Of a DNA stretch of 64,000 nucleotides, positions 4,201 through 37,357 are shown in pieces (the stretch's first letter is position 1; every line of letters starts with the position of its first letter). The notes below the pieces were generated by a model, which saw nothing but the letters and a program-made list of their open reading frames with translations, was not told the DNA's origin and ran no database searches. Location: positions 1,664,001 through 1,728,000 of the forward strand of contig OZ253442.1 of the NCBI GenBank assembly GCA_965261085.1. The letters are read 5' to 3'. This DNA comes from a bacterium. Its GTDB lineage: Bacteria; UBA8248. The position numbers were made by a program, and so were the translations under genes.

Positions 4201-4202
4201 GA

Positions 4203-4537
4203 GGGGTTGTTGAAAAACCCCTGATTCCGTGAATTGGTGAATGAAACCAACCGGGGAGGAGAGTCCGTAGGGACAATCCCTCCTCGGGGTCGTCCCACAG
4301 GTCGCGACCTGTCCTTACAGGGCGGTGCGGTTTTGTTCGTCATTCCGGCGAAAGCTGGTGGCAACCGCGAGGTTGACCATTTGTTTTGCCTTTGTTTTTT
4401 ATTTTCTGATTGGTTCCCGTCGATGACGAGGAGATGAAAAGCCGGAGTTTTGTCCTTTTGCATCAGAATGGATTCCGGCTTTCGCCGGAATGACGACGGT
4501 GGTTAACTCCGAGCGCGGAGGGCTTTTTCAACAGCCC
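4203..4537. mobile_element. MITE-like element, copy 1 (ends GGGGTTGTTGAAAAACCC ... GGGCTTTTTCAACAGCCC)
   Basis: Near-identical to 14741-15037; terminal inverted repeats; carries internal REP palindromes; no credible ORF. Confidence 0.65.
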
Positions 4538-4574
4538 TTCATCAGTCGCGTTTCACCCCCAGCATCCAAGCAAA

Positions 4575-4642
4575 AAAAAAGGAACCGCCCACCCTCCCGT
4601 ATCCAGGTCGGTTGCCTGGGAGAGGGGGGCAGTCCCTTTTTC
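4575..4642. terminator. Long hairpin flanked by A and T tracts, likely an intrinsic terminator downstream of the lipoprotein genes
   Basis: AAAAAGG..CCCTCCC..CCAGG-loop-CCTGG..GAGGGGGG..CCCTTTTT. Confidence 0.5.
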
Positions 4643-4833
4643 CGGTGTTACGGTGTTGCCAAGCGTCCTGATGCTGCGTATAAAAGAGAGCGGGGGTTGC
4701 CCCTTGTTCCCAATCCCGGCCCGAGGACTCAAACTCTAAGCAAGGAGTGGTACAGTTTGCCCTATCACGAGGGAAGCAACCAACGGGCAACCCCCATTTC
4801 GCTCTCCTTCAAAGCATCGTGCTCTTTCGGTTT

Positions 4834-6551: not shown

Positions 6552-6667
6552 TTGCCCCCTAAGGCTACGCCCCCCTTCCAGGAAATCAGAAGGGGGCGGG
6601 CGGAAAAACTGAATTCAATTTATTACGCTTATGTGCGCCGAAGCGCCGGTAATTCCCGTTCTTTCAT

Positions 6668-6712
6668 CCCCCGGCCCCGGGCGTCATGCCGACGCCCGGG
6701 GCCAAAGGGGCG
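6668..6712 (-). terminator. GC-rich hairpin between the two lipoprotein genes
   Basis: GGCCCCGGGCGTC-ATGCC-GACGCCCGGGGCC. Confidence 0.5.
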
Positions 6713-6735
6713 TCATGTCTATCCTCTTATTACTA

Positions 6736-8512
6736 TTACTCCGCCTTCCAAGAGCCGAACGCGCCCAGAATGCTCACCGGGGCAGTGCCACCACTCGTAC
6801 CGCTGAAAGTGCCTGCGGCGGTCGTGGGGAATTCGGATTCAATCGCCTTGCCGGTCGCCTTGTTGGGGCCGTAGAACTGGCCGCCCCACGCGCCCTTCAA
6901 CAAGGCGCTTCCCAAGGTGCCCTCAGTGACGCCGATGAAGCCGCCGTCGCTGGCGCCATTTGCTGCACCCGCGATGACTTTCGCCCTCTTCAACGTCAGC
7001 GAACCTTCCATGTCCATGCCGCCGGCCCTGATGTTGGAGACGGTTCCGGTGACGGCGCCTATGAGCAGCCCGTCATTGTCGGTAACAGCCGCCTCACTAC
7101 CAGGTGTGTTATCAGCCCCGGCGTTGCCGCCGAAGTTGGCTTCCAGGCTGACGTCCGCGTCGAAGTACTCGACCCATGCCGGCCGCCGAGTACAGGCCGT
7201 TTGCGACACCGTTATACGTCGCGCTGCCCTTGAGTACGGCCATGACGTTGAACCGGTCGTTGCCGTAAGCGAATGCGCCTGCCTGGGCGTCTGGACCGGT
7301 TTTATCCGGGTTGGAGTCTCTGATGGAAGCTTGTACCCAGAAACCCCAGGCGAGGTAGTCGGTATCGGCCTTTTTGGTGCCCGTTGCGTTCGCCACGGGC
7401 TGAAACACGTAGCCCACAGTTGTGATGATTTCGCCCTTGGCGTTGGCGCTTATGGAGCAGTCTGTGGCTGGAGCGCAGTAGAACCGCCCTTCCTGCGCCG
7501 GTATATTGTCGATAGCGGACACATCATGTGTTCCCTCGAAGCTCTTTCCGTCTCCCGGAATAACGCCGGTGATTACATGGTCGTCTGCCAGAGTGACATC
7601 GGCTCCATAGCTCGGCGTCGCCACATCCCCTTGAATGTCCGTGCTGACGACGAGATGAGTTTTCAGCATAGTAGTCTCTTCGGTGGTGGTGTCCGGCAAC
7701 AGCAGATCCTGGGCTTCCCAGTTTCCTTTGGTATTGAAACGTGAAGCAGTTTCACCCGCCAGCAGACGATTACCCTCACCAATTTCAAGCGCAAATGCTG
7801 ATCCACTCGCCTTATGCGCCGCTACTGCCGTGGCCGCTACTGTAGCTACCACAATCTGAGTGCCTTCGTCGGCATCGCTTTTTCCGCCCTGGTTAGTCAA
7901 ACTACCAGCTACAGTTACTGCTGGCTCTCCAATTTGTAAATCAGCATCAGCAGTAGGAGCATCTCCGGCAGCCCCTATTGCGGCGCCCACGTTTTTCGCA
8001 TTGTTAACAGCCTTGGGCGCTTCCGAACCACTCAACTCGGCATTTTCGATATCGTCGCCGTTAAGGGGCTTGTTCGACAGCATAATTATTCCCAGACCGG
8101 TCGCGCCGCCCGCCATCATCGCGCTGTCGCGAGCCGCCTCGGCTGCCGTCTGATACTCCCCGGCCATTGCGGAAGTCGTGGCCATCGCCGCCGAGTCGGA
8201 CGCGCTTTTGGCCATGGCCGCGTACTTATACGCATTGCCTGACGCCACGGGGTCCACCGCGCTGCCCACGGCGGCCATCGCCGCTACCGCCGCCGCCATG
8301 GCGCCTTCCTGCGCGTCACTCAGGGCCTTCGCTTCGATTTGATCAGGCGTCGGGCCTGGATCCACCGGATCCACCGGATCCACCACAGGCGGCATTTCCT
8401 CATCCATATCCATCATGGCGCTGCCGCCGCCGCAGCCGGCGAGCGTCAGCGCAAACACGGCCGCCAGTGCAAAAGCGTAGAACTTGCTTATTGATTTCTC
8501 TCTGAACATCAT
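6736..8512 (-). CDS. Second TbpB-like surface lipoprotein; 1-nt frameshift at about 7174 joins ORFs 7112-8512 and 6736-7209
   Basis: Lipobox LAGC; PVD repeats; DYLAWGFW and ATYNGVANG, then in the other frame VEYFDADVSL..GAWGGQFYGP..GTF..LGAFGSWKAE*. Confidence 0.78.
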
Positions 8513-8719
8513 TTAGTGAGTCCTCCTGATTACAGTAGAAAAAGGGATTTTCAGTGTATTTCCGGCTTTCTCCGATTAACCTCCTTTCCTCGCGTATCTT
8601 TCGGGCCGTAAAACCTGGTTCTGTGTTTTTTTAGTTGACCGGAGAGCAACGACGTTTCGGACGGGCCGTCCGGTCCGTATGGGACAAAATTCAGGAGGCA
8701 TGGGTGTAGCGGGATGGTC

Positions 8720-9242
8720 CCTGCCTTCGGCAGGGAGGGTCTTTTTGTTTTCCGCCGTCATCCCGAAGGTGACCGCGCCTCGTGAATCGTGTCGCAAACT
8801 TAGGTCAAAAAAGGTTTCTCAACGTATTTCCGCTTTGTCCGGTGAGCCTCCTTCTTCTCGTGTATACATGCGGGCTGTTAATAAGCCGATTGAGATCTTT
8901 TTTCGTCGGCGCCGGAGTGCGAAGAACGGCATGTCGCAGTCCGGGCCGGTTGCGACACAATCCACGAGGTATAGGATCTTGAGGTGGGTTCCCGCCTATT
9001 CCGGCCTTCAGGAGAAGGTCGTCTTGTATTCAGCGGGCAGCCCGAAGTCGACTGCACCTCATGGAATGTGTCGCAACATTCATCTTGCTACAGCTATTTC
9101 CGTTTTGTCAAGGTGATTAATCGCCTAATTCGGCCTTCTGTGAGAAGACCGCCTCGTGTCGGCGGGCAGCCGAAGCCTCGTCACCTCGCGGATTGTGTCG
9201 CACAATTTTCATCTTGCGGGAATTTTTCCGGTTTTGTCAAGA
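8720..9242 (-). promoter_or_regulatory. Array of degenerate ~120-130-bp units sharing a CCTCRYGRAWYGTGTCGCA core; two units start with TTGACA on the minus strand
   Basis: 8994-9112 aligns with 9123-9241; weaker copy at about 8722-8840; inverted core at 8950-8970. Confidence 0.5.
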
Positions 9243-25780: not shown

Positions 25781-27103
25781 TCATCTTGAATCCACCATAA
25801 ATTCGAGTTTTTTGTTTTGACGACGAAGGCCCGCTAAAGTGTAGATATTACTCTTTAACTTATTGCATGGGCCACAAAGAAGAACTCGATTTGAGATATG
25901 ATTTAAGCCACCATCGGAACGAGGCGTATTATGATCTAATTCCAGATATCTAGGATCATCAAATTCTCGATCACATCCTTGGCATTTTTGTCCATATTGG
26001 TCCAATAAAAATTCGTACATTTCTGCACGAGTCCTTTTTTCACCTTTAGGCTCATCTACTTTTAATTTAGTTTTCAGAAAAGGAACAGCCTCTTCTCCAT
26101 CGTCCGTACGAACAGGAAGTTCTCTAGTATAGGTTATCGTTCCTTGAGTAATGAGCCATTCACCCCACTCTTCGTCGGGCGTTACTAACTGCTCTTGCTT
26201 GAATCTATGAAGCACTGCATCGTGCGCTCCGGCCCAGATATCCGCCCCCACCCATTGGCGTTTAAGCCGTTCAGCCGCAACTAATGTTGTGGCACAACCG
26301 CAAAACGGATCAAGAACAATGTCATTAGGGTTAGACCCAACCTTAACGATGCGGTCAAAAAGCTGAATTGGTTTCTGTGTAGGGTAACCATACCGCTCTT
26401 TTGACATTGGGGGTATAGCGGGTATATCCCACCAATCTTCAGGTATCTTGCCATCTTTATGGGGCATATATGTTTTACCTGTATCCTTACGGGTAACCCC
26501 CCTCCCCGAAGTTTGATAACCGCCTGTCCCCCTATATGGCACCCGCGTTCTGTCGGCATTAAAAACCCAATTCTTGCCCTTAGAATACCAAAATATAATG
26601 TCGTGTTTACGTGCAAACTCCTTAGATGAACGCCCTCCCTGCCTATAACACCATATAATTTCATTCCGAAAATTCTTGTGTCCAAAAACAGCATCCATAA
26701 TGGCTTTGAGATAGTGGCTCGCCGTTGGATCACAATGGAGATAAATACTTCCATCTTCTCGTAGTATTCGCTTCATTTCTAACAACCGTACAGCCATAAA
26801 GCACATATAGGCACCCATACCATCCGAATGAGCATATCGAGCGCTCTCTATTGCTTCCATTAGTTTCGGGAAATCGTCTGTAATCTTATCAACCCATTCC
26901 TGATGAACATCCCTATCCCAAGACCACCTATCCTGAAAAGAAGCACCATCGGCTAGGCTATCTGGCGTAGCATGAAAATCTCGATTCTTGTTGAAGGGCG
27001 GATCAGTAGCAATCAGATGAATAGAATTACTATTGATCTCACGAAGAAAATCTAGGTTATCGCCATGATAAAGAGTTCGATTTTCGACATTTAATTTCGA
27101 CAT
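25781..27103 (-). CDS. N6/N4 DNA methyltransferase fused to a C-terminal HNH nuclease
   Basis: DPPF, YPTQKP and DPFCGCAT; C-terminal CQGC..DH..P...GG..H..N..LLC..CN; AT-rich. Confidence 0.88.
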   Translation of the reverse strand: MSKLNVENRTLYHGDNLDFLREINSNSIHLIATDPPFNKNRDFHATPDSLADGASFQDRWSWDRDVHQEWVDKITDDFPKLMEAIESARYAHSDGMGAYMCFMAVRLLEMKRILREDGSIYLHCDPTASHYLKAIMDAVFGHKNFRNEIIWCYRQGGRSSKEFARKHDIIFWYSKGKNWVFNADRTRVPYRGTGGYQTSGRGVTRKDTGKTYMPHKDGKIPEDWWDIPAIPPMSKERYGYPTQKPIQLFDRIVKVGSNPNDIVLDPFCGCATTLVAAERLKRQWVGADIWAGAHDAVLHRFKQEQLVTPDEEWGEWLITQGTITYTRELPVRTDDGEEAVPFLKTKLKVDEPKGEKRTRAEMYEFLLDQYGQKCQGCDREFDDPRYLELDHNTPRSDGGLNHISNRVLLCGPCNKLKSNIYTLAGLRRQNKKLEFMVDSR

Positions 27104-27318
27104 TTATCCTATTCGCTCCTTCCGGTTACTTTCCAATGACGCAATCAAATCTTAGAATTTAAGTCTTTTATTAAAGTTGTTGTAGTTCAATGGTAGAGCA
27201 GTTGTTAAGCAAATGACAGATATTGGGCTGAGTCCCGCCAAAGATTCCATGCTCGGAGTCCCCTGAACAAATTCAATCTCATAATTTGTAGATTGAAGTA
27301 TCCGACCCCCTTGCCCCC

Positions 27319-29010
27319 TCAAAGCACCTGTGGCGCGCCGCCCAAAGGGGTGGGCTTGACGACCGCGTCGATGAGGAAGGGTTTCTCGCTTCGGGCGGCC
27401 TCTGCAAGACACGCTTCCAGTTCATCGGGCGTATGGACGCGGGCGGCTTCCACGCCCATCGATTCCGCCAGCTTGATGAAGTCCAGGTTCGGTTCGGTCA
27501 GGTCCATGCCGACGAAGCGGTGAAATTCCTTCGCTTTTCCCTCCAGGGCCAGCACGCGCCCTTTCAGGATGTGGTAGGCCCCGTTGTTCGCGATGAGGAA
27601 GACCACGCCGACCTTGTACCTCGCCGCCGTCCAAAGGGTCTGGTTGGAATACATGGCCGAGCCGTCTCCCGAGAGACAGATGACGGGTCGATCGGGCGTC
27701 GCTATCTTGGCGCCCAGCGCCATGGGCAGGCCGTTTCCGATGCCGCCGCCCTTTCTGCCGAAAATCTGTGAAGCGTTGCGCCCCACCGCGCGCCGGAAGT
27801 TAGGCCCGGCGGAGGTGAGCGCCTCATCCACCCACACGGCGCCCTCGGGCGCCACTGCGCCGAGCGCCCGGTGGAAAGCGGGGAGGGACATGCCTCCCGA
27901 AAAATCACTCTCCTCTTTTGGAGATGAGGCGGCCTCGCGGGCGCTTTGGTTCTCTTTCGCAATCCGCTCCGCGCGCGATTTCGCTCCCGCTGCCTGCTCG
28001 CTCGTCTGCGCTTTTTTGACCGCCTCACGCAAGACGGGGAGCGTGGTTTTCGGGTCTCCGTAGAGCGAGGCGTCGAGTCCGAAATTCTTGCCCATCTCCC
28101 ATGTGTTCAAATCCAGATGCACGACCCGGCAGCTTTCGGGCAGGGGCCGCACGTCGGGGGGGTATGAGAACAGGAATACTTCCGTGCCGACGAGGAATAC
28201 CAGATCCGACTCCGCAAGGCGCTCCCTGAGGGGCCTGGCCAGATTGGGGAGCTTCCCGGCGTAGAGCGGGTGCGCGAGGGGATAGGTGATCATGTTGGCG
28301 AAATTTTCTTCATAGACTCTGGCGCCGATTTGTTCGGCGAACTGCGCCAGTTCGCCCAGCGCGCTCGATTTTGCGACGCCTGAGCCCGAGACGACCACGG
28401 GCCGCTCCGCTTTCGCGATGAGCTCGGCTGCCGCTTCGATGGACTCGGCAGATGCGGCGAAGCGCGTGTGAATGCGCGTGGGCTTTTCCATCAGACCCGA
28501 GGCGGCGCTAAGCATGACGTCTCCGGGGAGAGAGAGGAATACGGGCCCAGTCGGCGGCGTGAGGCACACCTTGATAGCGCGCCGCACGGCCTGTTCCAGG
28601 TCCTCGACGCGGCGTACTTCATACGACCACTTCACCAGGGGTTCCGCCATGCGCGCGAGATCGTCATAGAGGATGATTTCCTGAAAATGCCCGCTTTGGG
28701 GCTGGTTCCCGGCGGTGACGAGCATGGGCGCTCCAGAGCGCTTGGCGTTGTAGAGAAGCCCCATCGCGTTGCCGAGGCCGGGCGCAACGTGAAGGTTGAC
28801 GGCGGCGGGCTTACCCGTACTCAGGCCGTATCCTTCCGCCGCCGAGATGGCCACACCCTCATGCAGCGTGAGAATGAACTTGAGCCTTTCTTCGTTCACG
28901 AGCGCGTCCATCAAGGGAAGCTCCGTCGTGCCGGGATTCCCGAACAGGTGCGTCACTCCCTCATCGAGCAGGGTTTCCAGGAACAAGGATGCGCCGTTTT
29001 TGTTTCTCAT
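27319..29010 (-). CDS. Thiamine pyrophosphate-binding enzyme (benzoylformate decarboxylase-like)
   Basis: FGNPGTTELP, LHEG, GDGSAMY..NN. Confidence 0.9.
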   Translation of the reverse strand: MRNKNGASLFLETLLDEGVTHLFGNPGTTELPLMDALVNEERLKFILTLHEGVAISAAEGYGLSTGKPAAVNLHVAPGLGNAMGLLYNAKRSGAPMLVTAGNQPQSGHFQEIILYDDLARMAEPLVKWSYEVRRVEDLEQAVRRAIKVCLTPPTGPVFLSLPGDVMLSAASGLMEKPTRIHTRFAASAESIEAAAELIAKAERPVVVSGSGVAKSSALGELAQFAEQIGARVYEENFANMITYPLAHPLYAGKLPNLARPLRERLAESDLVFLVGTEVFLFSYPPDVRPLPESCRVVHLDLNTWEMGKNFGLDASLYGDPKTTLPVLREAVKKAQTSEQAAGAKSRAERIAKENQSAREAASSPKEESDFSGGMSLPAFHRALGAVAPEGAVWVDEALTSAGPNFRRAVGRNASQIFGRKGGGIGNGLPMALGAKIATPDRPVICLSGDGSAMYSNQTLWTAARYKVGVVFLIANNGAYHILKGRVLALEGKAKEFHRFVGMDLTEPNLDFIKLAESMGVEAARVHTPDELEACLAEAARSEKPFLIDAVVKPTPLGGAPQVL

Positions 29011-29028
29011 CGATGAAACCTCTAAAAA

Positions 29029-29763
29029 TTAGTGGAAATGAATGCCGCCGTTCAGAAGGAGGGTCTGGCCCGTAATGTAGCCGTTTCTAATCATCATCAT
29101 AATGGCGTCGACCGTCTCCTCCACCGTGCCGAACCGCTCCATCGGGTTATGGGGGGTGGAGACTTGTAAGTCTTGCGTCATCATGTCGGTTTTTATTACG
29201 GCGGGCGCCACGCTGTTCATCGTGATGCCTTCTTTCACCAGGGCGGCGGCGTAGGCGTGGGTGAGCCCGTGCATGCCCGCCTTGGAAGCCGCGTAGTGCG
29301 GCCCGACCCGCCCTCCGGTGAAGGCGGCGTTCGATGAGACGTTGACGATTCTTCCCCACCGCGCTTGTTTCATGTCGGGCAGAACGGCCTGTGTGAGTAA
29401 AAACGCGGACTTGAGATTCACGTCGAGCGTGGCGTCCCAATCGGATTCGGTGAGTTCCTCAAATGGCTTCTTGATGGCGACGCCTGCGTTGTTCACGAGA
29501 ATCGAGACGGGGCCGAAGCGCGCTCTCGTCTCATCCACGAGGCGGCGGACTTGCGCCTCGTCCGATACGTCGGCTTTCACGGGATGCGCCTCTCCGCCCG
29601 CTTCATCTATCAGGCGGCAGGCTTCTCCCGCTTCGTCCGCGCGCTCGCGGTAGTTCACCGCCACGCGGCAGCCCGCGCCCCCTAATGCCAGCGCGCATCC
29701 GCGCCCGATGCCCCGGCTCGCGCCGGTGACGATGCAGGTTTTCCCCTTCAAATCCGGTGGCAA
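29029..29763 (-). CDS. Short-chain dehydrogenase/reductase
   Basis: TGASRGIG, NNAG, YAASK. Confidence 0.92.
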   Translation of the reverse strand: MPPDLKGKTCIVTGASRGIGRGCALALGGAGCRVAVNYRERADEAGEACRLIDEAGGEAHPVKADVSDEAQVRRLVDETRARFGPVSILVNNAGVAIKKPFEELTESDWDATLDVNLKSAFLLTQAVLPDMKQARWGRIVNVSSNAAFTGGRVGPHYAASKAGMHGLTHAYAAALVKEGITMNSVAPAVIKTDMMTQDLQVSTPHNPMERFGTVEETVDAIMMMIRNGYITGQTLLLNGGIHFH

Positions 29764-29873
29764 CTCGGGGCCCTCACAGAATGAGAATATGAACGCCCAT
29801 CCTAATCCATACGCCGCGAGATGGGCAGTCGAGATGGGGATTTTTGTTATGGTTTGAGAAATCTACAAGAAGA

Positions 29874-29902
29874 TTGACAGTGAGAAACGAGAAGTATATT
29901 TT
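29874..29902 (+). promoter_or_regulatory. Putative sigma70 promoter for the repeat-RT locus
   Basis: TTGACA (29874-29879), 17 nt, TATTTT (29897-29902); the predicted start lies about 10 nt before repeat 1. Confidence 0.55.
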
Positions 29903-29920
29903 CAAATTGCGTATCCGTGA

Positions 29921-30056
29921 TCGTCGCCGGGCATATATTGTGCGCCGGAAAGACGGGAAGCGGGCCACCATTTGTCGGTAACGTTCCGATGAAGGGTGGA
30001 CGGGTTGCCGACGGATGTGTCTTATCAGACCCATTCGCAGGTCCCGTGAAGCAACA
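29921..30056 (+). repeat. 136-bp structured direct repeat 1 (candidate ncRNA module)
   Basis: Identical to 30312-30447 except T30018 vs G30409; contains nested hairpins. Confidence 0.95.
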
Positions 30057-30311
30057 GGTTAGCCTTGCCTCAGGAATGACCGTTGCCCTCGATGTGGAGG
30101 TCCAGATCGAGTGTCGGGCGGTCAATGGGGCAAATTATAGGCTGCGCCTGTCCGGGGCGGTCGATTTGGACTTGCTTTCCTCGCGAAAAAGGTACAATGC
30201 TTTAAGGAGGAACGCACGATGAAATCGCACCCATGCAAAAACGTGCCAACTTCCGAGTTGGACATGTAGCTATCAGATTTGTTCACGTGATAGCGCTTGC
30301 AGTTACGTTGC

Positions 30312-30447
30312 TCGTCGCCGGGCATATATTGTGCGCCGGAAAGACGGGAAGCGGGCCACCATTTGTCGGTAACGTTCCGATGAAGGGTGGACGGGTTGCC
30401 GACGGATGGGTCTTATCAGACCCATTCGCAGGTCCCGTGAAGCAACA
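30312..30447 (+). repeat. 136-bp structured direct repeat 2 (candidate ncRNA module)
   Basis: Same sequence as repeat 1; additionally closable by GTTGCT(30307-12)/AGCAAC(30441-46). Confidence 0.95.
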
Positions 30448-30503
30448 ATGCTTCCAGAGGCAAGGCGAGGCAATCCGACGTCGCCTGCCCCAGAGATCCT
30501 TTA

Positions 30504-32252
30504 GTGGTGAACTTATTTATTGAAGCAACAAAACAGTCTTCTCTTCGCCATGCATGGTACAGGATCCGTGCAAATGGTATCCGATCACCGCAACAAGAGA
30601 CCCGTGATGCCATTAATGAATTTGAACGCGCTGCTGAGAACTATATTGTCCGTGTTCAGAGAAGATTACGTAATGGCAGCTTTTTGTTTGAACCACAAAC
30701 AGGTGTTAGGAAGAAAAAGCGAAGTGGCGGAAAAAGGGGCATCGTCATGGCCCCTATTCAAAACCGAATCGTCGAGCGTGCTTGGCTGAACTGTCTGCAA
30801 AAACATGTGCCCTTTGTCCGCAATGTGATTCAGACGCCGACGAGCGTAGGCGGCGTTCCTGATCGAAGCGTTCCGCATGGACTACTTCTCATCCGTGGTT
30901 CTATGCGCGAAGGAAAAAAGTGTTTCATTCGGGCGGATATTTCGGGATTTTTTGACGGAATCCCGCGTCGCGATGTCATCTGCACATTGGGGCAGCATAT
31001 TGATGATGGCAATTTCCTGAAGACTTTGGAAGCTGCAACCGAAGTAACCTTGGAGAATGAAAAAGCGCTCGGTGAAGATCGGAAGCTTTTTCCGACTGAT
31101 AGAGAAGGTGTAGCACAAGGATCACCTCTCTCCGCCTTGTTCGGCAATATTCTACTTCATAAATTTGACAAGCAGTTTAATGAACGAGGGATTGTATGCG
31201 TTCGCTTCATAGATGATTTCATCATGCTTGGCGAACGACAAAGTGATGTACGCAAGGCGTTTGAGAATGCAAATGTGCATCTGGAGGATCTTGGTCTCAA
31301 ATGCCATGACCCTTTCAAGAGTGAAACGTCCCAAGGCAAGGCGCAGTATGGCCTTGTTGAAAGTGGTTTTATCTTTCTTGGTTACGATATTCGGCCTGGC
31401 CTTATGCAACCGTCAAAGCAAGCACGGAAGACGTTCTTAAATACGCTGGATCGTCATCTTAGATATGGTCGAGAAGCGATTTTAGATGTTTTGAGCGCGC
31501 AGGACAGCTTCGCGCATCGGCAACGTTATGTGCAGACTTTGGCTCTGCTAGATCGAGTTGTCCGTGGCTGGGGAAACTCGTTCGCTTATTCAAATGCGAC
31601 AGCTACAACGAATGACCTTGACAAACAAATCGAGCTTAAGATTGAGCAGTTTCGTGATTGGTATCGGCGCAAATTGCGCGATGCTGATTGGAAGGCAAAA
31701 CGCCGGGCTGGCGGCGTGTGCCTCCTGGCTGATATCGAGTCGAAAAGCCTTGATGAGCTTCCATTTCGCTTAGGAGAAAGAAAACGATATCGGCGAACAA
31801 AAGGTATGATCGTTGTTTCGACCGACGGTTCGGTGATCGGTGCTGGTCCTCGTGCTGGACGCGATAAGGGCCCAGGTGGCTGGGGAGTCGTTTTTCATAG
31901 TAGTGGTAAAGAGGCGAGTGGGAACGCTTCTGATGTGACGAATAACGAAATGGAGTTGGTGGCTGTCATTGAGGCGCTAAAGCTAACGCCTCCAGGAAGC
32001 AGGGTAAAAATTCGAACTGACAGCCAGTACGTTTATCGTGCGGTACAGGAAAATGCGATGATAAGTTCAAATACCGCGCTATGGAGTTGCTACAAAATCT
32101 TGAGTGCTGAAAGAAAAATCGATGTTGTCTGGATAAAGGGTCACGCAGGTGATCAGCACAATGAACGAGCAAATGAACTGGCTCGGCAGCAGGCCAGTAA
32201 CATGCTCGACTCATCCAAGGCGGGGGGATGGGCGCGCGTGGAATCGCCCTGA
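30504..32252 (+). CDS. Group II-like (G2L-type) reverse transcriptase fused to C-terminal RNase HI
   Basis: RT motifs K.SGGKRGI....NRIVER, ADISGFFD, GVAQGSPLS.LFGNI.L..FD, RFIDDF, FLGY, and thumb/domain-X-like VRGWGNSF. RNase H motifs TDGS..GPGGWG, TNNEMEL, TDSQY, WIKGH...NERANELA. Confidence 0.93.
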   Translation: MVNLFIEATKQSSLRHAWYRIRANGIRSPQQETRDAINEFERAAENYIVRVQRRLRNGSFLFEPQTGVRKKKRSGGKRGIVMAPIQNRIVERAWLNCLQKHVPFVRNVIQTPTSVGGVPDRSVPHGLLLIRGSMREGKKCFIRADISGFFDGIPRRDVICTLGQHIDDGNFLKTLEAATEVTLENEKALGEDRKLFPTDREGVAQGSPLSALFGNILLHKFDKQFNERGIVCVRFIDDFIMLGERQSDVRKAFENANVHLEDLGLKCHDPFKSETSQGKAQYGLVESGFIFLGYDIRPGLMQPSKQARKTFLNTLDRHLRYGREAILDVLSAQDSFAHRQRYVQTLALLDRVVRGWGNSFAYSNATATTNDLDKQIELKIEQFRDWYRRKLRDADWKAKRRAGGVCLLADIESKSLDELPFRLGERKRYRRTKGMIVVSTDGSVIGAGPRAGRDKGPGGWGVVFHSSGKEASGNASDVTNNEMELVAVIEALKLTPPGSRVKIRTDSQYVYRAVQENAMISSNTALWSCYKILSAERKIDVVWIKGHAGDQHNERANELARQQASNMLDSSKAGGWARVESP

Positions 32253-32295
32253 CGGGATTCAGGAGGAGAGGAGCGCGTCGTCCCGCCTTAAGAAA

Positions 32296-33180
32296 TCACT
32301 TGCCCCACACGACGGCCCATGCGCCCAGGACGGAACACGCCCCGCCGATGATGACCTGCGCGCTTATGCGCTCTTGTTTTCTGAAAAAAAGCCAGGAGAA
32401 GAGGATGACGATCAGGATCGAGAGCCGGTTGATGGGAACCACCTGAATAACCTCTCCGTCCTTGATCGCCCACCAGAAGAAAAATGCGGCCAGAAAATTG
32501 CACACCGCGCCCAGGGACGTGATCGTGAGCGAATGGCGGGTGAAGGGGGCGCTTTTCATCTGGAGCGTCGGGAGGAAGAAAAAGCTCGAGACCAGCAGTG
32601 TGAGCGACGTCATGTTCGAGATGCTCATTCCCAGACTGACCGATGGAATGTGGACGAAGCCGTATTTGCGCACGATGTGCGAGATGCTCGCAAAGGCGGC
32701 CCCCACCACGGGGATGAGGTAATAAGTGAGCGGAACCCGTCTTTCGATGGCTTTCTTGTCGTATAGGAGCAGGACCCCGCCCGCCATGATGCCCAGCGTC
32801 CCCAGCGTCACCAGGGGGGTGAGCGTCTCGCCCAATAGAATGACGGCCAGCCCTGTGGACCAGATGAGCCCCGTTTGCGTCAGTATGGGCGTGCGGGCCA
32901 GGCCCAGAAGCTTGATGGATATCATCCCCATGTAGCGCCCGCCCAATCCGCCGACCACCCCCACGAGAACGAACCACAAGACCCCGTAGAGCGGCCAGTG
33001 GTCGAGCCCCTCGCCCATCGCATAGAGGCCCAGGGCGAAGAAGGTGGTGATGATCGTCGCGATTACCGTAGTCACGAGGGGGCTCAAGCTCATGAGCGCG
33101 CCCCGGTAGAGGGTTCTGGCGACGGAGATGAAAAACGCCGAGAGAAGCGCCATCAGGTTGGGATGCAGTGGCTCGAGCAA
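32296..33180 (-). CDS. DMT/EamA family transporter
   Basis: About 10 hydrophobic segments in two repeats; LLGE motif. Confidence 0.85.
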   Translation of the reverse strand: MLEPLHPNLMALLSAFFISVARTLYRGALMSLSPLVTTVIATIITTFFALGLYAMGEGLDHWPLYGVLWFVLVGVVGGLGGRYMGMISIKLLGLARTPILTQTGLIWSTGLAVILLGETLTPLVTLGTLGIMAGGVLLLYDKKAIERRVPLTYYLIPVVGAAFASISHIVRKYGFVHIPSVSLGMSISNMTSLTLLVSSFFFLPTLQMKSAPFTRHSLTITSLGAVCNFLAAFFFWWAIKDGEVIQVVPINRLSILIVILFSWLFFRKQERISAQVIIGGACSVLGAWAVVWGK

Positions 33181-33302
33181 ATGGAAAACCTGAGATAAGA
33201 GAAAAACCTATTATCCACCCGCGGAGGGGGCAGGGCAAGGGAGGGGTTCCGACCAATGCAAGAGGAATTGCGACCGAAGAGGGATGATTGCGATTGGACC
33301 GA

Positions 33303-33612
33303 CGTCATTCCGGCGCATGCCGGAATCCAGGCGGACGAGGAGTTCATCGGTTCTAGATTCCAGCATGCGCCGGAATGACGGTGTTACAGGACAATCTCGA
33401 CCGATGACGTAGGAGCAGCGCCTTTGTAGGTCGGACATATATGTCCGCCACCCATATATGCGTCCCATGCTCTATCGTCTTCAAAAGAAGGGTCGCAACA
33501 TGTGCGACCTCTACGAGGTTCCTCCTGCCCGCCACGCGCGAACGGCTCCTACGCCCTAGTAGGGTCCGTTCGCGAATGGTGGGGCGACCCCGAAATGAGG
33601 CCGCCCCTACCA
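33303..33612. repeat. REP cluster: GTCATTCCGGCGCATGCCGGAATCC inverted pair plus GTAG-type palindromes
   Basis: Palindromes seen directly; same family as those at 4338, 4469, 14852, 14968 and 35476. Confidence 0.75.
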
Positions 33613-33622
33613 TGTATTCGTT

Positions 33623-35398
33623 CTACTTCTCAGGCACCACGGGCAGCATGATGTAAGACGCGTGGTCCGGTCCGCAGTGGAGTGTCACGTTTTTCCCAAA
33701 TATCTCCTCGGGCCTGTCCGTGGGGTCATCGTGTAAGAACGGCCCGCAGCCCCTGAACACGTTCTTCATGTTCGAGAGTTTGTGTGTCGTGGCGCAACTG
33801 TACTCATAATCCTTGCCGCGCACGCTGAGCGCCAGCCGGTAGCCGGGGGGCGCCACGATGCAGGTGGGCCAGACCTCGATGTCGAGATCATATATCTCAC
33901 CGGGGTTTAAGTATTGCTTCTCATCATGCGCCTGGTAGGGCTTCCACTCGGTGGACAACTCGGGCACGAGCTTTCTGTGCGAGGCCCGGAGCCAGCCCTG
34001 CGCGATGGGGGTGTTCGGGTCGAGCGTGCCCTGGAAGGTGATCTCCTTCATATCGGGCGTGAACAGGCGCAAGACGAGGAACAAGTCCGCGTCCTCGGTT
34101 TCCGAGGAAACGAAAAGCTTGGACGCGATGGGGCCCGTTATCTCCGTCTCCTTCTCAAAGGGCGGCAGCATGAAGGTCACGCCGTCGCTCAACCCCGCGT
34201 AGGTGATGGTTTGCTTGGCCTCGAGAGGTGCGGAACCCAGGTTCATGTGGGCCGGGTCCAGATAAAACTTCGTCCACTGCGTGCGTGCGAGGGGCCATTC
34301 GTTCTCGCCGCGCTCGACGAATTTTTCCCCCACGTGTCGCACCTTGAGCATGACGGGCGGTTTTTCCATCCAGCCTGTGTCTTCACCCTTCAAGTAATGG
34401 CCAAAAAACTGTTTCTGGAGCTTTTCCCCGTAGGGGGTGTAAAACTCCGTCCAGTGCTCGAAGCCGTGGACTTCCAGCCATTTCTCGGTAGAGGCCGCCC
34501 GCATGAAGCCCTCGTAGTTTCCCCTGGGGTGTAAGCCCTGTCCGCCCCAACTCGCCGCCGAGATGAAGGGTGTTTTTATCTTGTCCCAGTGGGCGGAGCG
34601 ATCTGTATACCACTCGCCATCCAGCGGGCGTTCGAGGATGTCACCCCCGTAGTCCGAGCGGTTTTTCTCCATCTCTTCTTCGCTCAAGGTCTCGGGGCCG
34701 CAGGCCAGACCGCCGTGGACGCGGCTTTTCGGGCCGTTCTCCCCCAGGCCGTACTGCACGCTTTTGACCTGCATGTCGTACCAGTTGGCGAGGAACGTCG
34801 TGAGGATGCCGCCCTGGTGGCTCATGTCGCGGTAGAAATCGGCCGATCCCTCCCAGACGCACATGGCGGCCAGATTTTTGGGTTGCAGTCCCGCCACATG
34901 CCATTGGTTGATGGCGTAATAGGAGATTCCCGTGAGGCCCACCTTGCCGTTGCACCAGGGCTGCTCGCCCGCCCAGTCGATGCAGATGGCGAAATCCTTG
35001 GTCTCGCGCGGGGAGAAGTGGTCGATATAGCCCGGCGAGCGGCCGGCGCCGCGCGAATCCACGCGCACGCAGATGTAGCCGTCCGGCACCCATTTCTCGG
35101 GGTCCACGACCTCCCAGCTCTGGTGGACGTTCGAGGAGCCTTCGATGGCGTCTGGATGCGCGCCGGCGAAAAGCTCCCACGCCGTCTCGTACCCGTCCTG
35201 CCATGCCAGGTCCTTCGCATAGGGGCCGTAGCTTAATATGACGGGGTATTTGCCGTCATCATCGGGACGGTAGACGTTCGCCCGCAGCACCAGGCCGTCT
35301 TCCATCCGGATGGGGACGTCCCATTCGATAAGAAAGCCGTCTCGTTTCTCGGTTCGGTATTGAGGGTCCGTGCTCAGGTCGATATCGCTCATGTTCAC
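33623..35398 (-). CDS. CocE/NonD family serine hydrolase
   Basis: YGPY.K, DSRGAGRSPG, GISYY; PepX C-terminal domain (GWLRASHR). Confidence 0.93.
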   Translation of the reverse strand: MNMSDIDLSTDPQYRTEKRDGFLIEWDVPIRMEDGLVLRANVYRPDDDGKYPVILSYGPYAKDLAWQDGYETAWELFAGAHPDAIEGSSNVHQSWEVVDPEKWVPDGYICVRVDSRGAGRSPGYIDHFSPRETKDFAICIDWAGEQPWCNGKVGLTGISYYAINQWHVAGLQPKNLAAMCVWEGSADFYRDMSHQGGILTTFLANWYDMQVKSVQYGLGENGPKSRVHGGLACGPETLSEEEMEKNRSDYGGDILERPLDGEWYTDRSAHWDKIKTPFISAASWGGQGLHPRGNYEGFMRAASTEKWLEVHGFEHWTEFYTPYGEKLQKQFFGHYLKGEDTGWMEKPPVMLKVRHVGEKFVERGENEWPLARTQWTKFYLDPAHMNLGSAPLEAKQTITYAGLSDGVTFMLPPFEKETEITGPIASKLFVSSETEDADLFLVLRLFTPDMKEITFQGTLDPNTPIAQGWLRASHRKLVPELSTEWKPYQAHDEKQYLNPGEIYDLDIEVWPTCIVAPPGYRLALSVRGKDYEYSCATTHKLSNMKNVFRGCGPFLHDDPTDRPEEIFGKNVTLHCGPDHASYIMLPVVPEK

Positions 35399-35605: not shown

Positions 35606-37357
35606 TTATTTCTCGGGTATCACCGGCAGCATCACGTAGGCCGCGTGCTCTCCGCCGCAGTGTAAGGTGACGTTTTTCCCGAACACCGCGGCCGGCCTGT
35701 CCTTGGGGTCGGTGTGAATAAAACAACCGCAACCAGTGAACTCGTTTTTCATGTTGGAGAGGCCGCCGCCCACGCCGCCCGGATATTCATAGTCCTTTCC
35801 GCGCACCGTGAAGGCGACCCGGTAGCCCTCGGGAATCACGATGCAGGTCGGCCAAATCTCGATGTCGAGTTCATAGACCGCACCCGGCGTCAGGGGTTGT
35901 TCCTCATCGTGCGTGTGGTAGGGCCTGTAGGGCAGTGTTTTTTCAGGGTCGAGTTTCCTGTGCGAGGCTCTCAGCCAGCCCTGCGCGATGGGGGTGTGCG
36001 GGTCGAGTGCGCCCTGGAATACGACTTCTTCCATGTTGGGCGAGAAGACGCGCACGACGAGGAAGAGGTCCGCGTCCCTCGACTCTGAGGACACGAAGAG
36101 CTTGGCCGCTATGGGGCCGGTGACTTCCGTGTCTTCGGAGATGGGCGTCGTGGTGAAGGTGACGCCGTCGCTGAAGCCCGCGTAGGTGGTGGCCGCAGCA
36201 TCTGCGACGGGGGCGTCTTCGAGCGAGTGTGTATTCGCGTTTAAGTAGTATTTCGTCCACTGCGTCCGCGCGAGGGGCCATTCGCTCTCGTGTCGCTCGA
36301 CGAAGCGCTCGCCGGGGTGGCGCACCTGGAGCAGCACCCGGGGCTGCTCCGGCCAGCCGGTGTCCTCGCCCTTGAGATAGTGGCCAAAGAATTTCTTCTG
36401 CATGTTGACGCCGTAGTCGGTGTAAAACTCCGTCCAGTGTTCGATGCCGTGGACTTCGAGCCATTTCTCCTCACAGCCGGTTTCGAGAAAACCCTCGAAG
36501 TTCCCGCGCGGGTGCAAGCCCTGTCCGCCCCAGTTGGCCGAAGAGAGGAGGGGTACCTGGATTTTACTGAAATCGGGCATTCTCGACTGCCAGAATTCGT
36601 CGGTGTCCAGCTTGTGGGAAAAACAATCCTCGCCGAAATCGTTTCGGTTCGCGCCGAGTTCCTCCTCGGTGAGGGTCGGAGGGCCGGAAACCCAATCGCC
36701 CGTGAAGCGGCTCTTGAAGCCGCGCTTGCCGCGACCGTGCTGCACGCTGTAGACCTGCATCTCGGGCCAGTTGCGCGCGAAGCCGTTACAGAAGATGCCG
36801 CCGTGGTGAGCCATTTCCCGGTAATAATCGGCCGCCCCCTCCCAGACGCACATGGCGGTCAGGTGCGGCGGCTGGAGCTCGCCCACCTGCCACTGGTTCA
36901 TGCCGTAATAGGAGATGCCGTTCAGCCCGATCTTGCCCGTGCTCCAGGGCTGCACCGCCGCCCATTCGATGCACTGGTAGAAGTCTTGCGCCTCGCGCGC
37001 CGACCAGATGTCGATGACGCCTGGGGATCTGCCCGCGCCGCGCGAATCCACGCGAATGCAGACGTAGCCGTCGGGCACCCATTTTTCCGGGTCCACGACC
37101 TCCCAGTTCTGGTACTTGTTGGTGGAGCCTGCGGGCACGTCAGGGTGTTCCTCGACCATGCGCGTCCAGCAGGTCTCGTATAGGTCTTCAAAGTGCAGGT
37201 ATTTCCCGTACGGGCCGTACGTCATGATGACGGGGTATTTCCCGTCGTCCTGGGGGCGGTATACGTCGCACCGCAGAACGACGCCGTCTTCCATGGGGAT
37301 GGGCGCGTCCCAGTCGATGCGCATCCCGTCTCTGTCTTCGGTCTTGAAATCGCTCAT
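35606..37357 (-). CDS. CocE/NonD family serine hydrolase (tandem paralog)
   Basis: Same motifs; collinear with its neighbour. Confidence 0.93.
   Translation of the reverse strand: MSDFKTEDRDGMRIDWDAPIPMEDGVVLRCDVYRPQDDGKYPVIMTYGPYGKYLHFEDLYETCWTRMVEEHPDVPAGSTNKYQNWEVVDPEKWVPDGYVCIRVDSRGAGRSPGVIDIWSAREAQDFYQCIEWAAVQPWSTGKIGLNGISYYGMNQWQVGELQPPHLTAMCVWEGAADYYREMAHHGGIFCNGFARNWPEMQVYSVQHGRGKRGFKSRFTGDWVSGPPTLTEEELGANRNDFGEDCFSHKLDTDEFWQSRMPDFSKIQVPLLSSANWGGQGLHPRGNFEGFLETGCEEKWLEVHGIEHWTEFYTDYGVNMQKKFFGHYLKGEDTGWPEQPRVLLQVRHPGERFVERHESEWPLARTQWTKYYLNANTHSLEDAPVADAAATTYAGFSDGVTFTTTPISEDTEVTGPIAAKLFVSSESRDADLFLVVRVFSPNMEEVVFQGALDPHTPIAQGWLRASHRKLDPEKTLPYRPYHTHDEEQPLTPGAVYELDIEIWPTCIVIPEGYRVAFTVRGKDYEYPGGVGGGLSNMKNEFTGCGCFIHTDPKDRPAAVFGKNVTLHCGGEHAAYVMLPVIPEK

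What the first reader, a model, noticed from the sequence alone, without database searches (positions are those of the whole stretch)
29874..32252. Stand-alone group-II-like RT fused to RNase H, preceded by twin structured 136-bp repeats: candidate RT-ncRNA system
Seen: a 582-aa ORF with all RT blocks, a non-canonical FIDD active-site motif (usually YADD), a domain-X-like thumb (RGWGNSF) and a C-terminal RNase HI domain. The RNase H retains D-E-D-H, with Asn at the last Asp. Upstream are a TTGACA-17-TATTTT promoter and repeats at 29921-30056 and 30312-30447 (one mismatch) around a 255-bp spacer. The block is AT-richer than its flanks, sits antisense between housekeeping genes, and has no cas, transposase or recognisable intron RNA nearby. 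Known: bacterial RTs rarely carry their own RNase H. From recall, G2L4 RTs have a YIDD motif, act in DNA break repair and are preceded by paired palindromic ~140-bp repeats of unknown role. Inference: this is a G2L4-related variant that gained RNase H and uses the repeat-spacer-repeat RNA as scaffold or template. RT plus RNase H plus terminal direct repeats is the toolkit for retrovirus-like strand transfer, so it could make a circular or concatemeric cDNA for defence, repair or mobility.
Basis: partly seen in the sequence, partly recalled or inferred. Interest (0 to 1): 0.92.

Follow-up and report, generated by a model that had tools for sequence, protein, structure and literature searches.

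The report
G2L4-like reverse transcriptase with RNase H
This is a small, horizontally acquired bacterial element that encodes a reverse transcriptase related to the DNA-repair enzyme G2L4 but fused to its own RNase H, preceded by two near-identical repeats that form a conserved structured RNA whose job is still unknown.

Summary
ORF 30504-32252 is an RT-RNase HI fusion. Its RT part matches solved G2L4 RT structures (E 1.6e-75; fold TM 0.83). On a quick tree it belongs to a sister clade of YIDD G2L4 RTs with a FIDD motif. Of the 120 best homologs, 119 carry RNase H.

The twin 139-nt repeats plus 252-nt spacer match the "long direct repeat" (LDR) layout published for Pseudomonas G2L4. Twenty of 25 RT-RNase H loci have it; the other five keep one LDR.

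New here:
- The whole module is conserved and folds on the sense strand with strong covariation.
- A covarying helix X:X' sits just 3' of each LDR, in both clades.
- The two LDRs are homogenised within each locus (median 99.3% identity, against 62% between loci).
- The module shows no protein-coding signature.

The element (about 29853-32200) was not found in 22 of 22 same-genus genomes and replaced a host gene.

How it works is inferred only. I favour an RNA partner that is reverse-transcribed with repeat-mediated strand transfer (about 0.35-0.4). The main rival is a regulatory or cofactor RNA (about 0.35). It is a new variant of a known kind.

The parts
29853..32200 (+). Whole inserted element (about 2.35 kb): promoter, LDR module and RT-RNase H gene
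   Evidence: Same-genus genomes align with the window up to about 29845-29852 and again from about 32201. In between they hold a ~1-kb oxidoreductase gene, or 31-136 bp. The RT-RNase H was not found in 22 of 22 same-genus genomes searched.
29874..29902 (+). P1, sigma-70-like promoter (TTGACA-17-TATTTT) just upstream of LDR1
   Evidence: Consensus scan. A TTG...-10-like pair stands at the same alignment columns in most of the 18 aligned loci. The -10 end lies 5-30 nt before the LDR1 start. The transcription start was not measured.
29918..30056 (+). LDR1, first long direct repeat (three covarying hairpins at 29927-29948, 29965-29999 and 30001-30046)
30066..30075 (+). X, 5' strand of the long-range helix (wider arm 30062-30086), immediately 3' of LDR1
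   Evidence: Inverted repeat I1. It is helix 7 of the consensus structure: 10 pairs, 8 with changes on both sides, 92% of cells paired. An equivalent helix of different sequence occurs in G2L4-like loci.
30078..30123 (+). Conserved spacer hairpin (helices 8/9)
   Evidence: 16 pairs, 8 with changes on both sides. These compensatory changes would be non-synonymous in the open frame.
30057..30308 (+). Spacer, conserved across loci. It holds a promoter-like motif (about 30171-30198), a Shine-Dalgarno-like AAGGAGGA (30204-30212), a conserved AUGCAAAAAC motif (30231-30247) and hairpins at 30244-30264 and 30269-30294.
   Evidence: Alignment A2. An nhmmer profile of the spacer hits 19 RT-RNase H loci at E 1e-37 to 1e-68, and its 3' half hits 8 G2L4-like loci at E 1e-5 to 1e-10. 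The roles of the motifs are untested; the window's promoter-like motif did not pass the consensus scan.
30309..30447 (+). LDR2, second long direct repeat
30453..30462 (+). X', 3' strand of the long-range helix (wider arm 30442-30466), immediately 3' of LDR2
30463..30486 (+). Conserved hairpin (helix 19) between X' and the RT start codon
   Evidence: 6 pairs, 99% of cells paired, 3 with changes on both sides.
30504..32252 (+). RT-RNase H ORF, 582 aa: RT fingers/palm 30714-31310, FIDD 31206-31217, thumb/GIIM-like 31524-31703, low-confidence linker 31713-31808, RNase HI 31812-32195
32201..32252 (+). Last ~17 codons of the ORF, derived from the 3' end of the displaced host oxidoreductase gene (chimeric tail)
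   Evidence: The same 3'-end sequence closes the ~1-kb gene of a same-genus genome (L091, compared). The tail is shared only with the 88%-identical homolog P0001.

Best explanation
WHAT IT IS (about 0.9): a stand-alone, horizontally acquired 2.35-kb element with two parts.
1. A reverse transcriptase of the G2L4 lineage, in a FIDD sister clade, that has gained a C-terminal RNase HI domain. The catalytic residues of both domains are conserved.
2. The lineage's upstream module: promoter P1, LDR1, a 252-nt spacer and LDR2. This is a sense-strand structured non-coding nucleic acid, not a protein gene (about 0.75 that it is the enzyme's dedicated RNA partner).

HOW I THINK IT WORKS (inferred, about 0.35-0.4):
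1. P1 makes an RNA that begins close to LDR1.
2. Helix X:X' clamps the two identical LDR domains. G2L4 RT is a dimer in its solved structures, so the RT may bind both.
3. The RT copies part of the module into cDNA.
4. The fused RNase H removes the copied RNA.
5. The nascent cDNA is complementary to both LDRs, so it re-anneals on the other copy. This resembles strand transfer at the retroviral R repeat.
6. The result is unit-length or longer cDNA.

Occasional recombination of such cDNA with the locus, or plain gene conversion, would keep the two LDRs identical. The purpose of the product is open. It could be break repair, as shown for G2L4, or defence.
For: Shown:
- G2L4 kinship by sequence, fold and a quick tree.
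- RNase H is present in 119 of the 120 best homologs listed, and its D-E-D-H residues are invariant in 27 of 27.
- The LDR pair plus spacer is present in 20 of 25 RT-RNase H loci with at least 650 nt upstream, window included. It is also present in 13 of 19 YIDD loci.
- The module folds on the sense strand. 91% of cells pair, against 34-45% when partners are slid. 68 pairs change on both sides, against 30-45 when slid. 0 of 500 shuffles reach the observed values. There are 332 G-U cells against 33 A-C cells.
- Helix X:X' covaries and recurs with a different sequence in the YIDD clade.
- The module diverges by 15% between close pairs, while RT third codon positions diverge by 50%.
- The LDR copies are 97.6-100% identical within a locus and a median 62% identical between loci. 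In 116 variable columns the two copies agree in 2049 of 2076 cells.
- LDR1 starts 5-30 nt after the P1 -10 element.
- No conserved neighbouring gene was found in 27 loci.
- In print: sense-strand reads over the P. aeruginosa LDRs are 20-fold above those over the RT gene, and the LDRs modulate survival after DNA damage (passages). G2L4 RT anneals strands strongly and acts as a dimer (passages).
Against: - No cDNA, RNA end or RNA-protein contact was observed for this or any related locus.
- G2L4's shown activity is DNA-templated end joining, and it extends long primers poorly (passages).
- Gene conversion alone can homogenise 139-nt repeats 250 bp apart.
- The predicted P1 start lies some nucleotides upstream of the repeat boundary. 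A strong-stop cDNA would therefore carry a non-homologous tip.
- The priming site is unknown.
- The window's own RNase H has Asn at the last acidic position.
Confidence: 0.4

Rival explanations
1. Cofactor or regulator RNA, not a template. The LDR RNAs are stable structured RNAs that bind and gate the RT, which is a DNA-break-repair polymerase like G2L4 (microhomology-mediated end joining). The two identical domains serve the two protomers of a dimer. Alternatively, they toggle between local hairpins and inter-repeat pairing. The RNase H domain clears RNA:DNA hybrids at breaks or after RNA-templated repair.
For: - G2L4's repair role, its dimer and its plugged apoenzyme are in print (passages).
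- LDR RNA accumulates, and the LDRs 'modulate' survival without changing the protein level.
- Because each LDR is palindromic, the single-sequence fold of 29911-30503 pairs LDR1 arms with LDR2 arms (-273 kcal/mol, z = -7.5). Identity of the copies could therefore be selected for pairing alone.
Against: - This reading gives no specific reason for a fused RNase H with conserved catalytic residues.
- It does not explain conservation of unpaired spacer sequence.
- Homogenisation must then be ascribed wholly to gene conversion.
Confidence: 0.35
2. Cis/trans expression control. P1 makes a small RNA (LDR1-X-hairpin). A second, internal promoter makes the RT mRNA with LDR2-X' in its leader. X pairs with X' next to the ribosome-binding region, and the RT binds the LDR and hairpin 19 to autoregulate. 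This would resemble a group II intron protein binding DIVa, or an sRNA-controlled toxic gene.
For: - There are promoter-like and Shine-Dalgarno-like motifs in the spacer, and a conserved hairpin directly before the start codon.
- X' lies 40 nt upstream of the start codon.
- Three of the five solo-LDR loci have truncated RT genes.
Against: - The internal promoter motif did not pass the consensus scan in the window.
- No terminator was found after the spacer hairpin.
- Regulation alone does not need two 139-nt copies kept identical.
Confidence: 0.12
3. The repeats are LTR-like ends of a retro-mobile element that transposes through an RNA copy.
For: - Sporadic distribution, low GC, and insertion without an integrase gene.
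- Near-identical repeat pairs, and solo repeats that resemble solo LTRs.
Against: - Both repeats lie upstream of the gene rather than flanking it.
- The conserved element includes promoter P1, which a P1 transcript would not carry.
- There is only one copy in the genome.
Confidence: 0.06
4. The module encodes a small secreted protein in circularly permuted form: a start codon and hydrophobic segment before LDR2, and a C-terminal part after LDR1. The gene would be completed only in a circular or concatemeric copy, like Neo of DRT2.
For: - One frame is open across LDR1 plus the 5' spacer in 18 of 18 aligned loci. Another frame is open from the spacer start codon through LDR2.
- YIDD loci show the same layout with an 'MQKRA' start.
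Against: - Stop-free runs are not longer than in dinucleotide shuffles (p 0.08-0.5 per locus).
- Substitutions fall 279:264:312 over the three codon positions, with 129 synonymous and 367 non-synonymous codon changes. The RT gene gives 1111:763:2875 and 1944 to 1300.
- The start codon is missing in L018, and L019 has a stop there.
- No Pfam family matched.
Confidence: 0.04

Closest known systems
G2L4 reverse transcriptase with upstream long direct repeats (P. aeruginosa; bioRxiv 10.1101/2022.03.14.484287; PDB 9D4S, 9D5X)
   Same: - The RT core is 34-42% identical over aa 1-410 and has the same fold.
- Ile stands at the second position of the xIDD motif.
- It is free-standing, with no intron RNA.
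- It has the same upstream layout of two ~140-nt repeats and a ~250-nt spacer, with an X:X' helix.
- It lies in low-GC, horizontally acquired DNA.
   Different: - FIDD instead of YIDD.
- A C-terminal RNase HI domain of ~150 aa joined by a flexible linker.
- The LDR sequence is not alignable with the Pseudomonas LDRs by BLAST.
- It occurs mostly in Alphaproteobacteria.
- A three-residue gap lies where G2L4 has its active-site-plugging Arg pair (alignment). Whether that plug exists here is open.
Retroviral and LTR-retrotransposon RT-RNase H with R-repeat strand transfer
   Same: RT and RNase H sit on one polypeptide. A direct repeat lies at or near the RNA 5' end and again downstream. Solo repeats arise by recombination.
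   Different: The RT belongs to the group II/non-LTR lineage, and the RNase H is closest to bacterial RNase HI (32-35% identity). Both repeats lie upstream of the gene. There are no gag, protease or integrase genes and no tRNA-like primer. Strand transfer is not shown.
DRT2 (UG2) defence RT with ncRNA-templated rolling-circle cDNA (abstracts seen; details recalled)
   Same: A single RT gene sits next to a structured ncRNA. The proposed template jump would give repeats of a unit.
   Different: It is a different RT lineage. Here the homology for the jump would be 139 nt. The unit shows no selection for a protein. No link to defence was tested.
Retrons
   Same: The RT has an adjacent structured RNA closed by a helix of inverted repeats (a1/a2 compared with X:X'). 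RNase H is needed to process the RNA-DNA product (title and abstract of PMC8989520).
   Different: There is no msr/msd signature and no Rfam hit. The RT is G2L4-like and not retron-type. The RNase H is built in rather than supplied by the host.
UG17 and UG4 RTs (best named PADLOC models)
   Same: Moderate HMM matches: UG17 at E 6.5e-34 and UG4 at E 5.6e-28.
   Different: UG17 goes with a SLATT gene and UG4 with fimbrial genes (passages). No conserved neighbour was found here. The match to G2L4 is far stronger.

Membership tests
G2L4 RT family | RT sequence and fold closest to G2L4, clearly separated from group II intron RTs | tested here: met
   phmmer gives 9d5x at E 1.6e-75; the next RT, 7uim, is at 6.9e-15. 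Foldseek gives 9d4s at TM 0.83 and a group II RT at 0.64. The joint clade has support 100 (quick tree).
G2L4 RT family | YIDD at the active site | tested here: not met
   FIDD in the window. F is found in 26 of 27 and I in 26 of 27 family members. Of 21 RT-only loci with a readable motif, 20 have YIDD and one has YLDD. The Ile that the authors tie to strand annealing is kept.
G2L4 RT family | RT-only protein of ~410-420 aa | tested here: not met
   582 aa with an RNase_H domain at aa 437-564. 119 of the 120 best homologs carry RNase H.
G2L4 RT family | Two ~140-bp long direct repeats around a ~240-bp spacer within 1 kb upstream (~70% of loci in print) | tested here: met
   139 + 252 + 139 nt, ending 57 nt before the start codon. 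20 of 25 clade loci have the pair.
G2L4 RT family | Function in double-strand-break repair by microhomology-mediated end joining | not testable with these tools
   Needs survival and biochemical assays.
G2L4 RT family | RT3a insertion with the Arg pair that plugs the active site in the apoenzyme | tested here: inconclusive
   The phmmer alignment to 9d5x has a three-residue gap at that spot. A nearly invariant Arg (R193) lies nearby.
Mobile group II intron | Intron ribozyme domains around the ORF | tested here: not met
   No Rfam match at E <= 1 in 28500-33500.
RNase HI (type 1 RNase H) | D-E-D-H-D catalytic set | tested here: met
   D441, E484, D506 and H547 are invariant. The fifth position is Asn in the window and Asp in 23 of 27. 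The fold has TM 0.72-0.76 to E. coli RNase HI. That an Asn at this position keeps activity in E. coli RNase HI is recalled, not checked.
UG17 / DRT systems | Adjacent SLATT effector gene; clade membership | tested here: not met
   No recurrent flanking ORF family in 27 loci. The UG17 HMM match is much weaker than the G2L4 match.
LTR retroelement | Direct repeats flank the coding region | tested here: not met
   Both repeats lie upstream. The LDR profile finds no third copy in any locus, and there are only two copies in the genome.
DRT2-like de novo gene synthesis | The repeat unit carries an open frame under selection | tested here: not met
   run lengths are as in shuffles, and there is no codon-position bias.

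The most novel reading that the evidence does not exclude
The LDR-spacer-LDR RNA is a self-contained 'R-unique-R' template. The RT-RNase H copies it and, after RNase H clears the 5' LDR, transfers the strong-stop cDNA to the second LDR. This would yield circular or concatemeric DNA of the ~390-nt unit. It would be a domesticated bacterial counterpart of retroviral strand transfer, arising inside the group II intron lineage. It would also explain the unexplained LDRs of G2L4, which would borrow host RNase H. The identity of the two repeats would be a footprint of that copying.
Probability: 0.3. Interest if true: 0.9.

Novelty: new variant of a known kind. Interest (0 to 1): 0.66.

Why it matters
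Bacterial RTs are generally described as lacking RNase H. I saw this stated in passages on group II introns and in the abstract on retrons.

Here a whole clade fuses a G2L4-type RT to an RNase HI with intact catalytic residues. At least 119 listed members carry the fusion. That implies RNA:DNA hybrids are a real intermediate for this lineage. This bears on the open question of what G2L4 enzymes and their unexplained long direct repeats do in cells.

The comparative data turn the LDRs from an oddity into a defined RNA with testable parts: the X:X' helix, the identity of the twin repeats, and the solo-repeat derivatives.

A compact natural RT-RNase H of the processive group II type may also interest enzyme developers.

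Tried and rejected
**Protein-coding reading of the module.** It looked attractive at first: open frames in 18 of 18 loci, an 'MQKRA' start and a hydrophobic segment. I reject it as a conventional gene. Run lengths match dinucleotide shuffles, there is no codon-position bias, and no Pfam family matched.

**Search for related loci.** The first scan of genome contigs with the single protein found no relative. The allowed second scan, with alignment A1, gave 78 loci.

**Expression.** No RNA holder was listed for this stretch, so expression is unknown.

**DNA contigs.** I laid Logan contigs of four runs from one sample.
- Contigs break at the LDR edges, as any 139-nt repeat would make them.
- No joint was reported.
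- The LDR unitig has about 1.6-2 times the depth of its flanks, and the spacer contig has the same depth as the RT contig.
- The tool warns that such depths are not copy numbers. I take this only as no sign of extra DNA copies in that sample.

**Other blanks.**
- Rfam: no match.
- tRNA-like primer: none.
- Plasmids: one hit, a P. aeruginosa megaplasmid G2L4. Phages: none.
- No recurrent flanking ORF family apart from the RT itself and ORFs overlapping the RT gene or the LDR module.

**Weak or unfinished results.**
- The consensus fold of the YIDD-clade LDR2 region was weak: 9 sequences, 38 pairs, 10 compensatory. I do not claim the two clades share LDR hairpins, only the layout and the X:X' helix.
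- Duplex-energy z-scores for X:X' were modest. The case rests on position and covariation.
- The careful tree search did not finish in time, so the tree cited is the quick IQ-TREE run. Before it I dropped 14 rows that were truncated or near-duplicates: L012, L021, L022, L026, L029, L041, L043, L044, L045, L049, L050, L051, L059 and L075.

**Literature.** Six searches found no description of an RNase H-fused G2L4-like RT. 'RNase H' occurs 0 times in the G2L4 preprint, in Simon and Zimmerly 2008, in Mestre 2022 and in the 2021 review. The library is partial and supplements were closed. Supplementary RT lists, and Toro et al. 2019, which I did not read, may already hold this clade.

Full report
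**1. The observation**

The window holds a 582-aa ORF at 30504-32252 on the plus strand.
- Pfam finds RVT_1 (aa 71-269), RNase_H (aa 437-564), and a GIIM/thumb match 0.2 bits under its cut-off.
- The active-site motif is FIDD.
- Two direct repeats of 139 nt lie at 29918-30056 and 30309-30447 and are 98.6% identical. They are separated by 252 nt and end 57 nt before the start codon.
- They are the only copies in the 4.27-Mb genome.
- A TTGACA-17-TATTTT promoter-like site at 29874-29902 is the only such hit in 29700-32400.
- GC drops to 0.45-0.52 in the RT gene, against 0.57-0.65 outside it.
- Rfam finds nothing at E <= 1.

The Asn at the fifth RNase H catalytic position is particular to the window and one close homolog. 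The family has Asp there in 23 of 27 aligned members.

**2. What the protein is**

Against PDB sequences the best hits are the two G2L4 RT entries (9d5x, 9d4s) at E 1.6e-75 over aa 9-412. The next RT scores 6.9e-15. The C-terminal domain matches E. coli RNase HI at about 1e-14.

An AlphaFold model built on 27 family members has mean pLDDT 82.8 and a low-confidence linker at aa 404-435.
- Its best Foldseek hit is 9d4s (TM 0.83 on the target, 38% identity).
- Group II intron RTs follow at about 0.65.
- The RNase H domain superposes on E. coli RNase HI at TM 0.72-0.76.

PADLOC's best named models, UG17 and UG4, match far less well. Their hallmark neighbours, SLATT and fimbrial genes (passages), are absent.

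**3. The family**

A search of 5.8 billion proteins listed 120 best hits of about 540-645 aa. Of these, 119 carry both RVT_1 and RNase_H; the exception is a 417-aa fragment. Source names, where given, are 'RNase H family protein' or 'ribonuclease HI/retron-type reverse transcriptase'. The named source organisms are mostly Alphaproteobacteria.

In 27 aligned members the RT aspartates and RNase H D441, E484, D506 and H547 are invariant.

A scan of one genome per species returned 78 loci.
- About 27 encode RT-RNase H proteins, 48-75% identical to the window's.
- About 21 encode RT-only proteins of 410-430 aa, 30-42% identical over aa 1-410. These are mostly from Pseudomonas and carry YIDD in 20 of 21. 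They are G2L4 proper.
- More distant hits have YADD or FADD. Ten of them were scanned with Pfam: six are RT-Cas1 fusions, four are plain or GIIM-bearing RTs, and none has RNase H.

On a quick maximum-likelihood tree of 51 RT cores:
- the FIDD/RNase H rows form one clade (SH-aLRT 97);
- the YIDD rows form its sister (82);
- both together are separated from the outgroup with support 100.

One gain of RNase H in a sister lineage of G2L4 is the simplest reading. The careful tree search did not finish, so this rests on the quick run.

**4. The repeats are the published G2L4 'LDRs'**

Passages of the G2L4 preprint state the following.
- Sense-strand read depth over the LDRs is 20-fold that over the RT gene.
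- Co-expressing the LDRs modulates survival after DNA damage without changing the protein level.
- The loci look horizontally acquired.

The authors left the role of the LDRs open. A 2026 paper on G2L4 does not mention them.

Among my loci, self-comparison of the 1.5 kb upstream finds such a pair in 13 of 19 YIDD loci with enough sequence. It also finds one in 19 RT-RNase H loci plus the window. With an nhmmer profile, 20 of 25 RT-RNase H loci with at least 650 nt upstream have LDR-spacer-LDR. The other five (L006, L013, L021, L022, L043) have a single LDR at the LDR2 position, preceded by a P1-like promoter and followed by X', with no spacer. That is the expected product of recombination between the two repeats. 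Three of those five have truncated RT genes, including the window's two closest relatives.

**5. What the module is**

The whole ~650 nt aligns across 18 loci.

RNAalifold predicts 112 pairs, 68 of which show compensatory change. Counting that structure gives the following:
- 91.0% of cells paired, against 34-45% when the partners are slid by 1-3 columns;
- a covariation score of 0.442, against at most 0.122 when slid;
- 0 of 500 shuffles reach the observed values.

Helices in LDR1 and LDR2 are the same sequence and are not independent, and the loci are related. The numbers therefore overstate independence, but the slid controls keep relatedness.

G-U cells outnumber A-C cells 332 to 33, so the strand that folds is the RT sense strand. 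This agrees with the published read strand.

Each LDR has three hairpins. The spacer has a strongly covarying hairpin at 30078-30123. A further hairpin at 30463-30486 sits just before the start codon.

A long-range helix joins X (30066-30075), immediately 3' of LDR1, to X' (30453-30462), immediately 3' of LDR2. Eight of its ten pairs change on both sides. YIDD loci have a helix at the same two places with an unrelated sequence. This is the strongest sign that the pairing itself matters.

**6. Not a protein gene**

One frame is open through LDR1 and the first half of the spacer in all 18 loci. Another frame runs from a start codon behind a Shine-Dalgarno-like AAGGAGGA through LDR2. Read around a circle, the two would give a ~125-aa protein with a signal-peptide-like start. 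I tested this reading and reject it.
- Stop-free runs are no longer than in dinucleotide shuffles.
- In 15 close pairs, substitutions fall evenly on codon positions (279:264:312), with 129 synonymous and 367 non-synonymous codon changes. The adjacent RT gene gives 1111:763:2875 and 1944 to 1300.
- The compensatory changes in the spacer hairpin would be non-synonymous.
- Two loci lack the start codon.

The same comparison shows that the module diverges far less (15%) than RT third codon positions (50%). The entire unit, spacer included, is therefore under nucleotide-level constraint.

**7. Concerted evolution**

The duplication predates the split of the FIDD and YIDD clades, because both share the layout and part of the spacer. 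Even so, within each locus the two LDRs are 97.6-100% identical (median 99.3%, n = 18). LDRs of different loci are a median 62% identical. In 116 variable columns the two copies agree in 2049 of 2076 cells. Something keeps re-copying one repeat onto the other, or selection demands identity.

**8. The element and its arrival**

The RT-RNase H was not found in 22 of 22 same-genus genomes.
- Eleven of them have a ~1-kb oxidoreductase gene between the SDR and EamA genes.
- Three have 31-136 bp there.

In the window that gene has been replaced from about 29853 to 32200. The last ~17 codons of the RT-RNase H ORF are the old gene's 3' end read in frame.

The element brings its own promoter P1 but no recombinase. 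No gene recurs next to it in 27 loci. It is not on phages in the collection searched, and only a G2L4 stands on one plasmid.

**9. How it most likely works**

Shown:
- an RT and an RNase H with intact catalytic residues on one chain;
- a dedicated, co-inherited, structured sense-strand module;
- twin repeats kept identical, the first starting 5-30 nt after the P1 -10 element;
- a helix that ties the 3' borders of the two repeats together.

Inferred: the RNA is bound and partly reverse-transcribed. RNase H removes the copied 5' LDR. The cDNA end, complementary to both repeats, moves to the second LDR.

I put about 0.35-0.4 on this. The main rival, at about 0.35, is that the RNA only gates or guides a repair polymerase. 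In that reading the repeat identity is maintained by gene conversion, or by the need for inter-repeat pairing that the palindromic LDRs allow. Pure expression control (0.12), an LTR-like mobile element (0.06) and a permuted protein gene (0.04) follow.

No RNA data exist for this organism in the runs offered. DNA contigs gave no sign of extra copies (weak).

**10. Known or new**

This is not a member of G2L4 in the strict sense, because it lacks YIDD and is not RT-only. It is a sister variant that shares the fold, the Ile and the LDR module.

I found no description of an RNase H-fused G2L4-like RT in six literature searches or in the papers read in passages. Supplementary tables that I could not open may list it.

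I file it as a new variant of a known kind. Its value lies in making the function of the LDRs, and the question of whether this lineage really reverse-transcribes RNA in cells, directly testable.

Noticed in passing
window 25781-27103 (-): A 440-aa fusion of an N6/N4 DNA methylase with a C-terminal HNH nuclease domain, about 3 kb from the element. It may be a restriction-modification or defence-type gene. Its region has low GC (0.476 at 27000-27499).
   Followed up: no
window 32201-32285; L091 4060-5100: This is a remnant of a ~1-kb Gfo/Idh/MocA-like oxidoreductase gene. The gene is intact in 11 same-genus genomes and has been displaced here by the element. Its 3' end now supplies the RT-RNase H stop codon. 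The family name is my reading of the translated sequence and was not scanned.
   Followed up: partly
window 33623-35398 and 35606-37357 (-): Two tandem paralogous S15-family (X-Pro dipeptidyl-peptidase/CocE-like) hydrolase genes (Pfam for the first). Further paralogs at ~65-72% DNA identity are scattered in this and related genomes.
   Followed up: no
window 30219-30269 (+): A 16-codon micro-ORF starts 7 nt behind the Shine-Dalgarno-like AAGGAGGA and reads the conserved AAAAAC motif as ...CKNVP.... Similar micro-ORFs stand at the same place in YIDD loci. The conservation is at nucleotide level, so translation is unproven.
   Followed up: partly
L042, L046, L047, L048 (Pseudomonas G2L4 loci), about -480 to -270 before the RT start: The 3' part of the spacer (promoter-like motif and the AUGCAAAAAC motif) is tandemly duplicated, which lengthens the unit to 485-492 nt.
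   Followed up: no
L008, L009, L010, L011, L012, L027, L029: Seven contigs end within or just upstream of the LDR module. This is probably because short-read assemblers break at the 139-nt repeat. It means LDR counts from draft genomes are underestimates.
   Followed up: no
L093 (P. aeruginosa megaplasmid NZ_CP131792.1) 3741-8930: The plasmid-borne G2L4 gene has an annotated 64-aa 'hypothetical protein' over its LDR2 region. Next to it lie a recombinase-family gene, a TIR-domain gene, an HTH regulator and an inovirus Gp2-type gene.
   Followed up: no
window 29600-29790 and 32200-32400, runs X1-X4: Flank contigs have 2-4 times the word depth of the element's contigs, and a variant right-flank contig with 5 differences is present in X3 and X4. 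This suggests that related strains without the element share the sample. The tool cautions that depths are not copy numbers.
   Followed up: no
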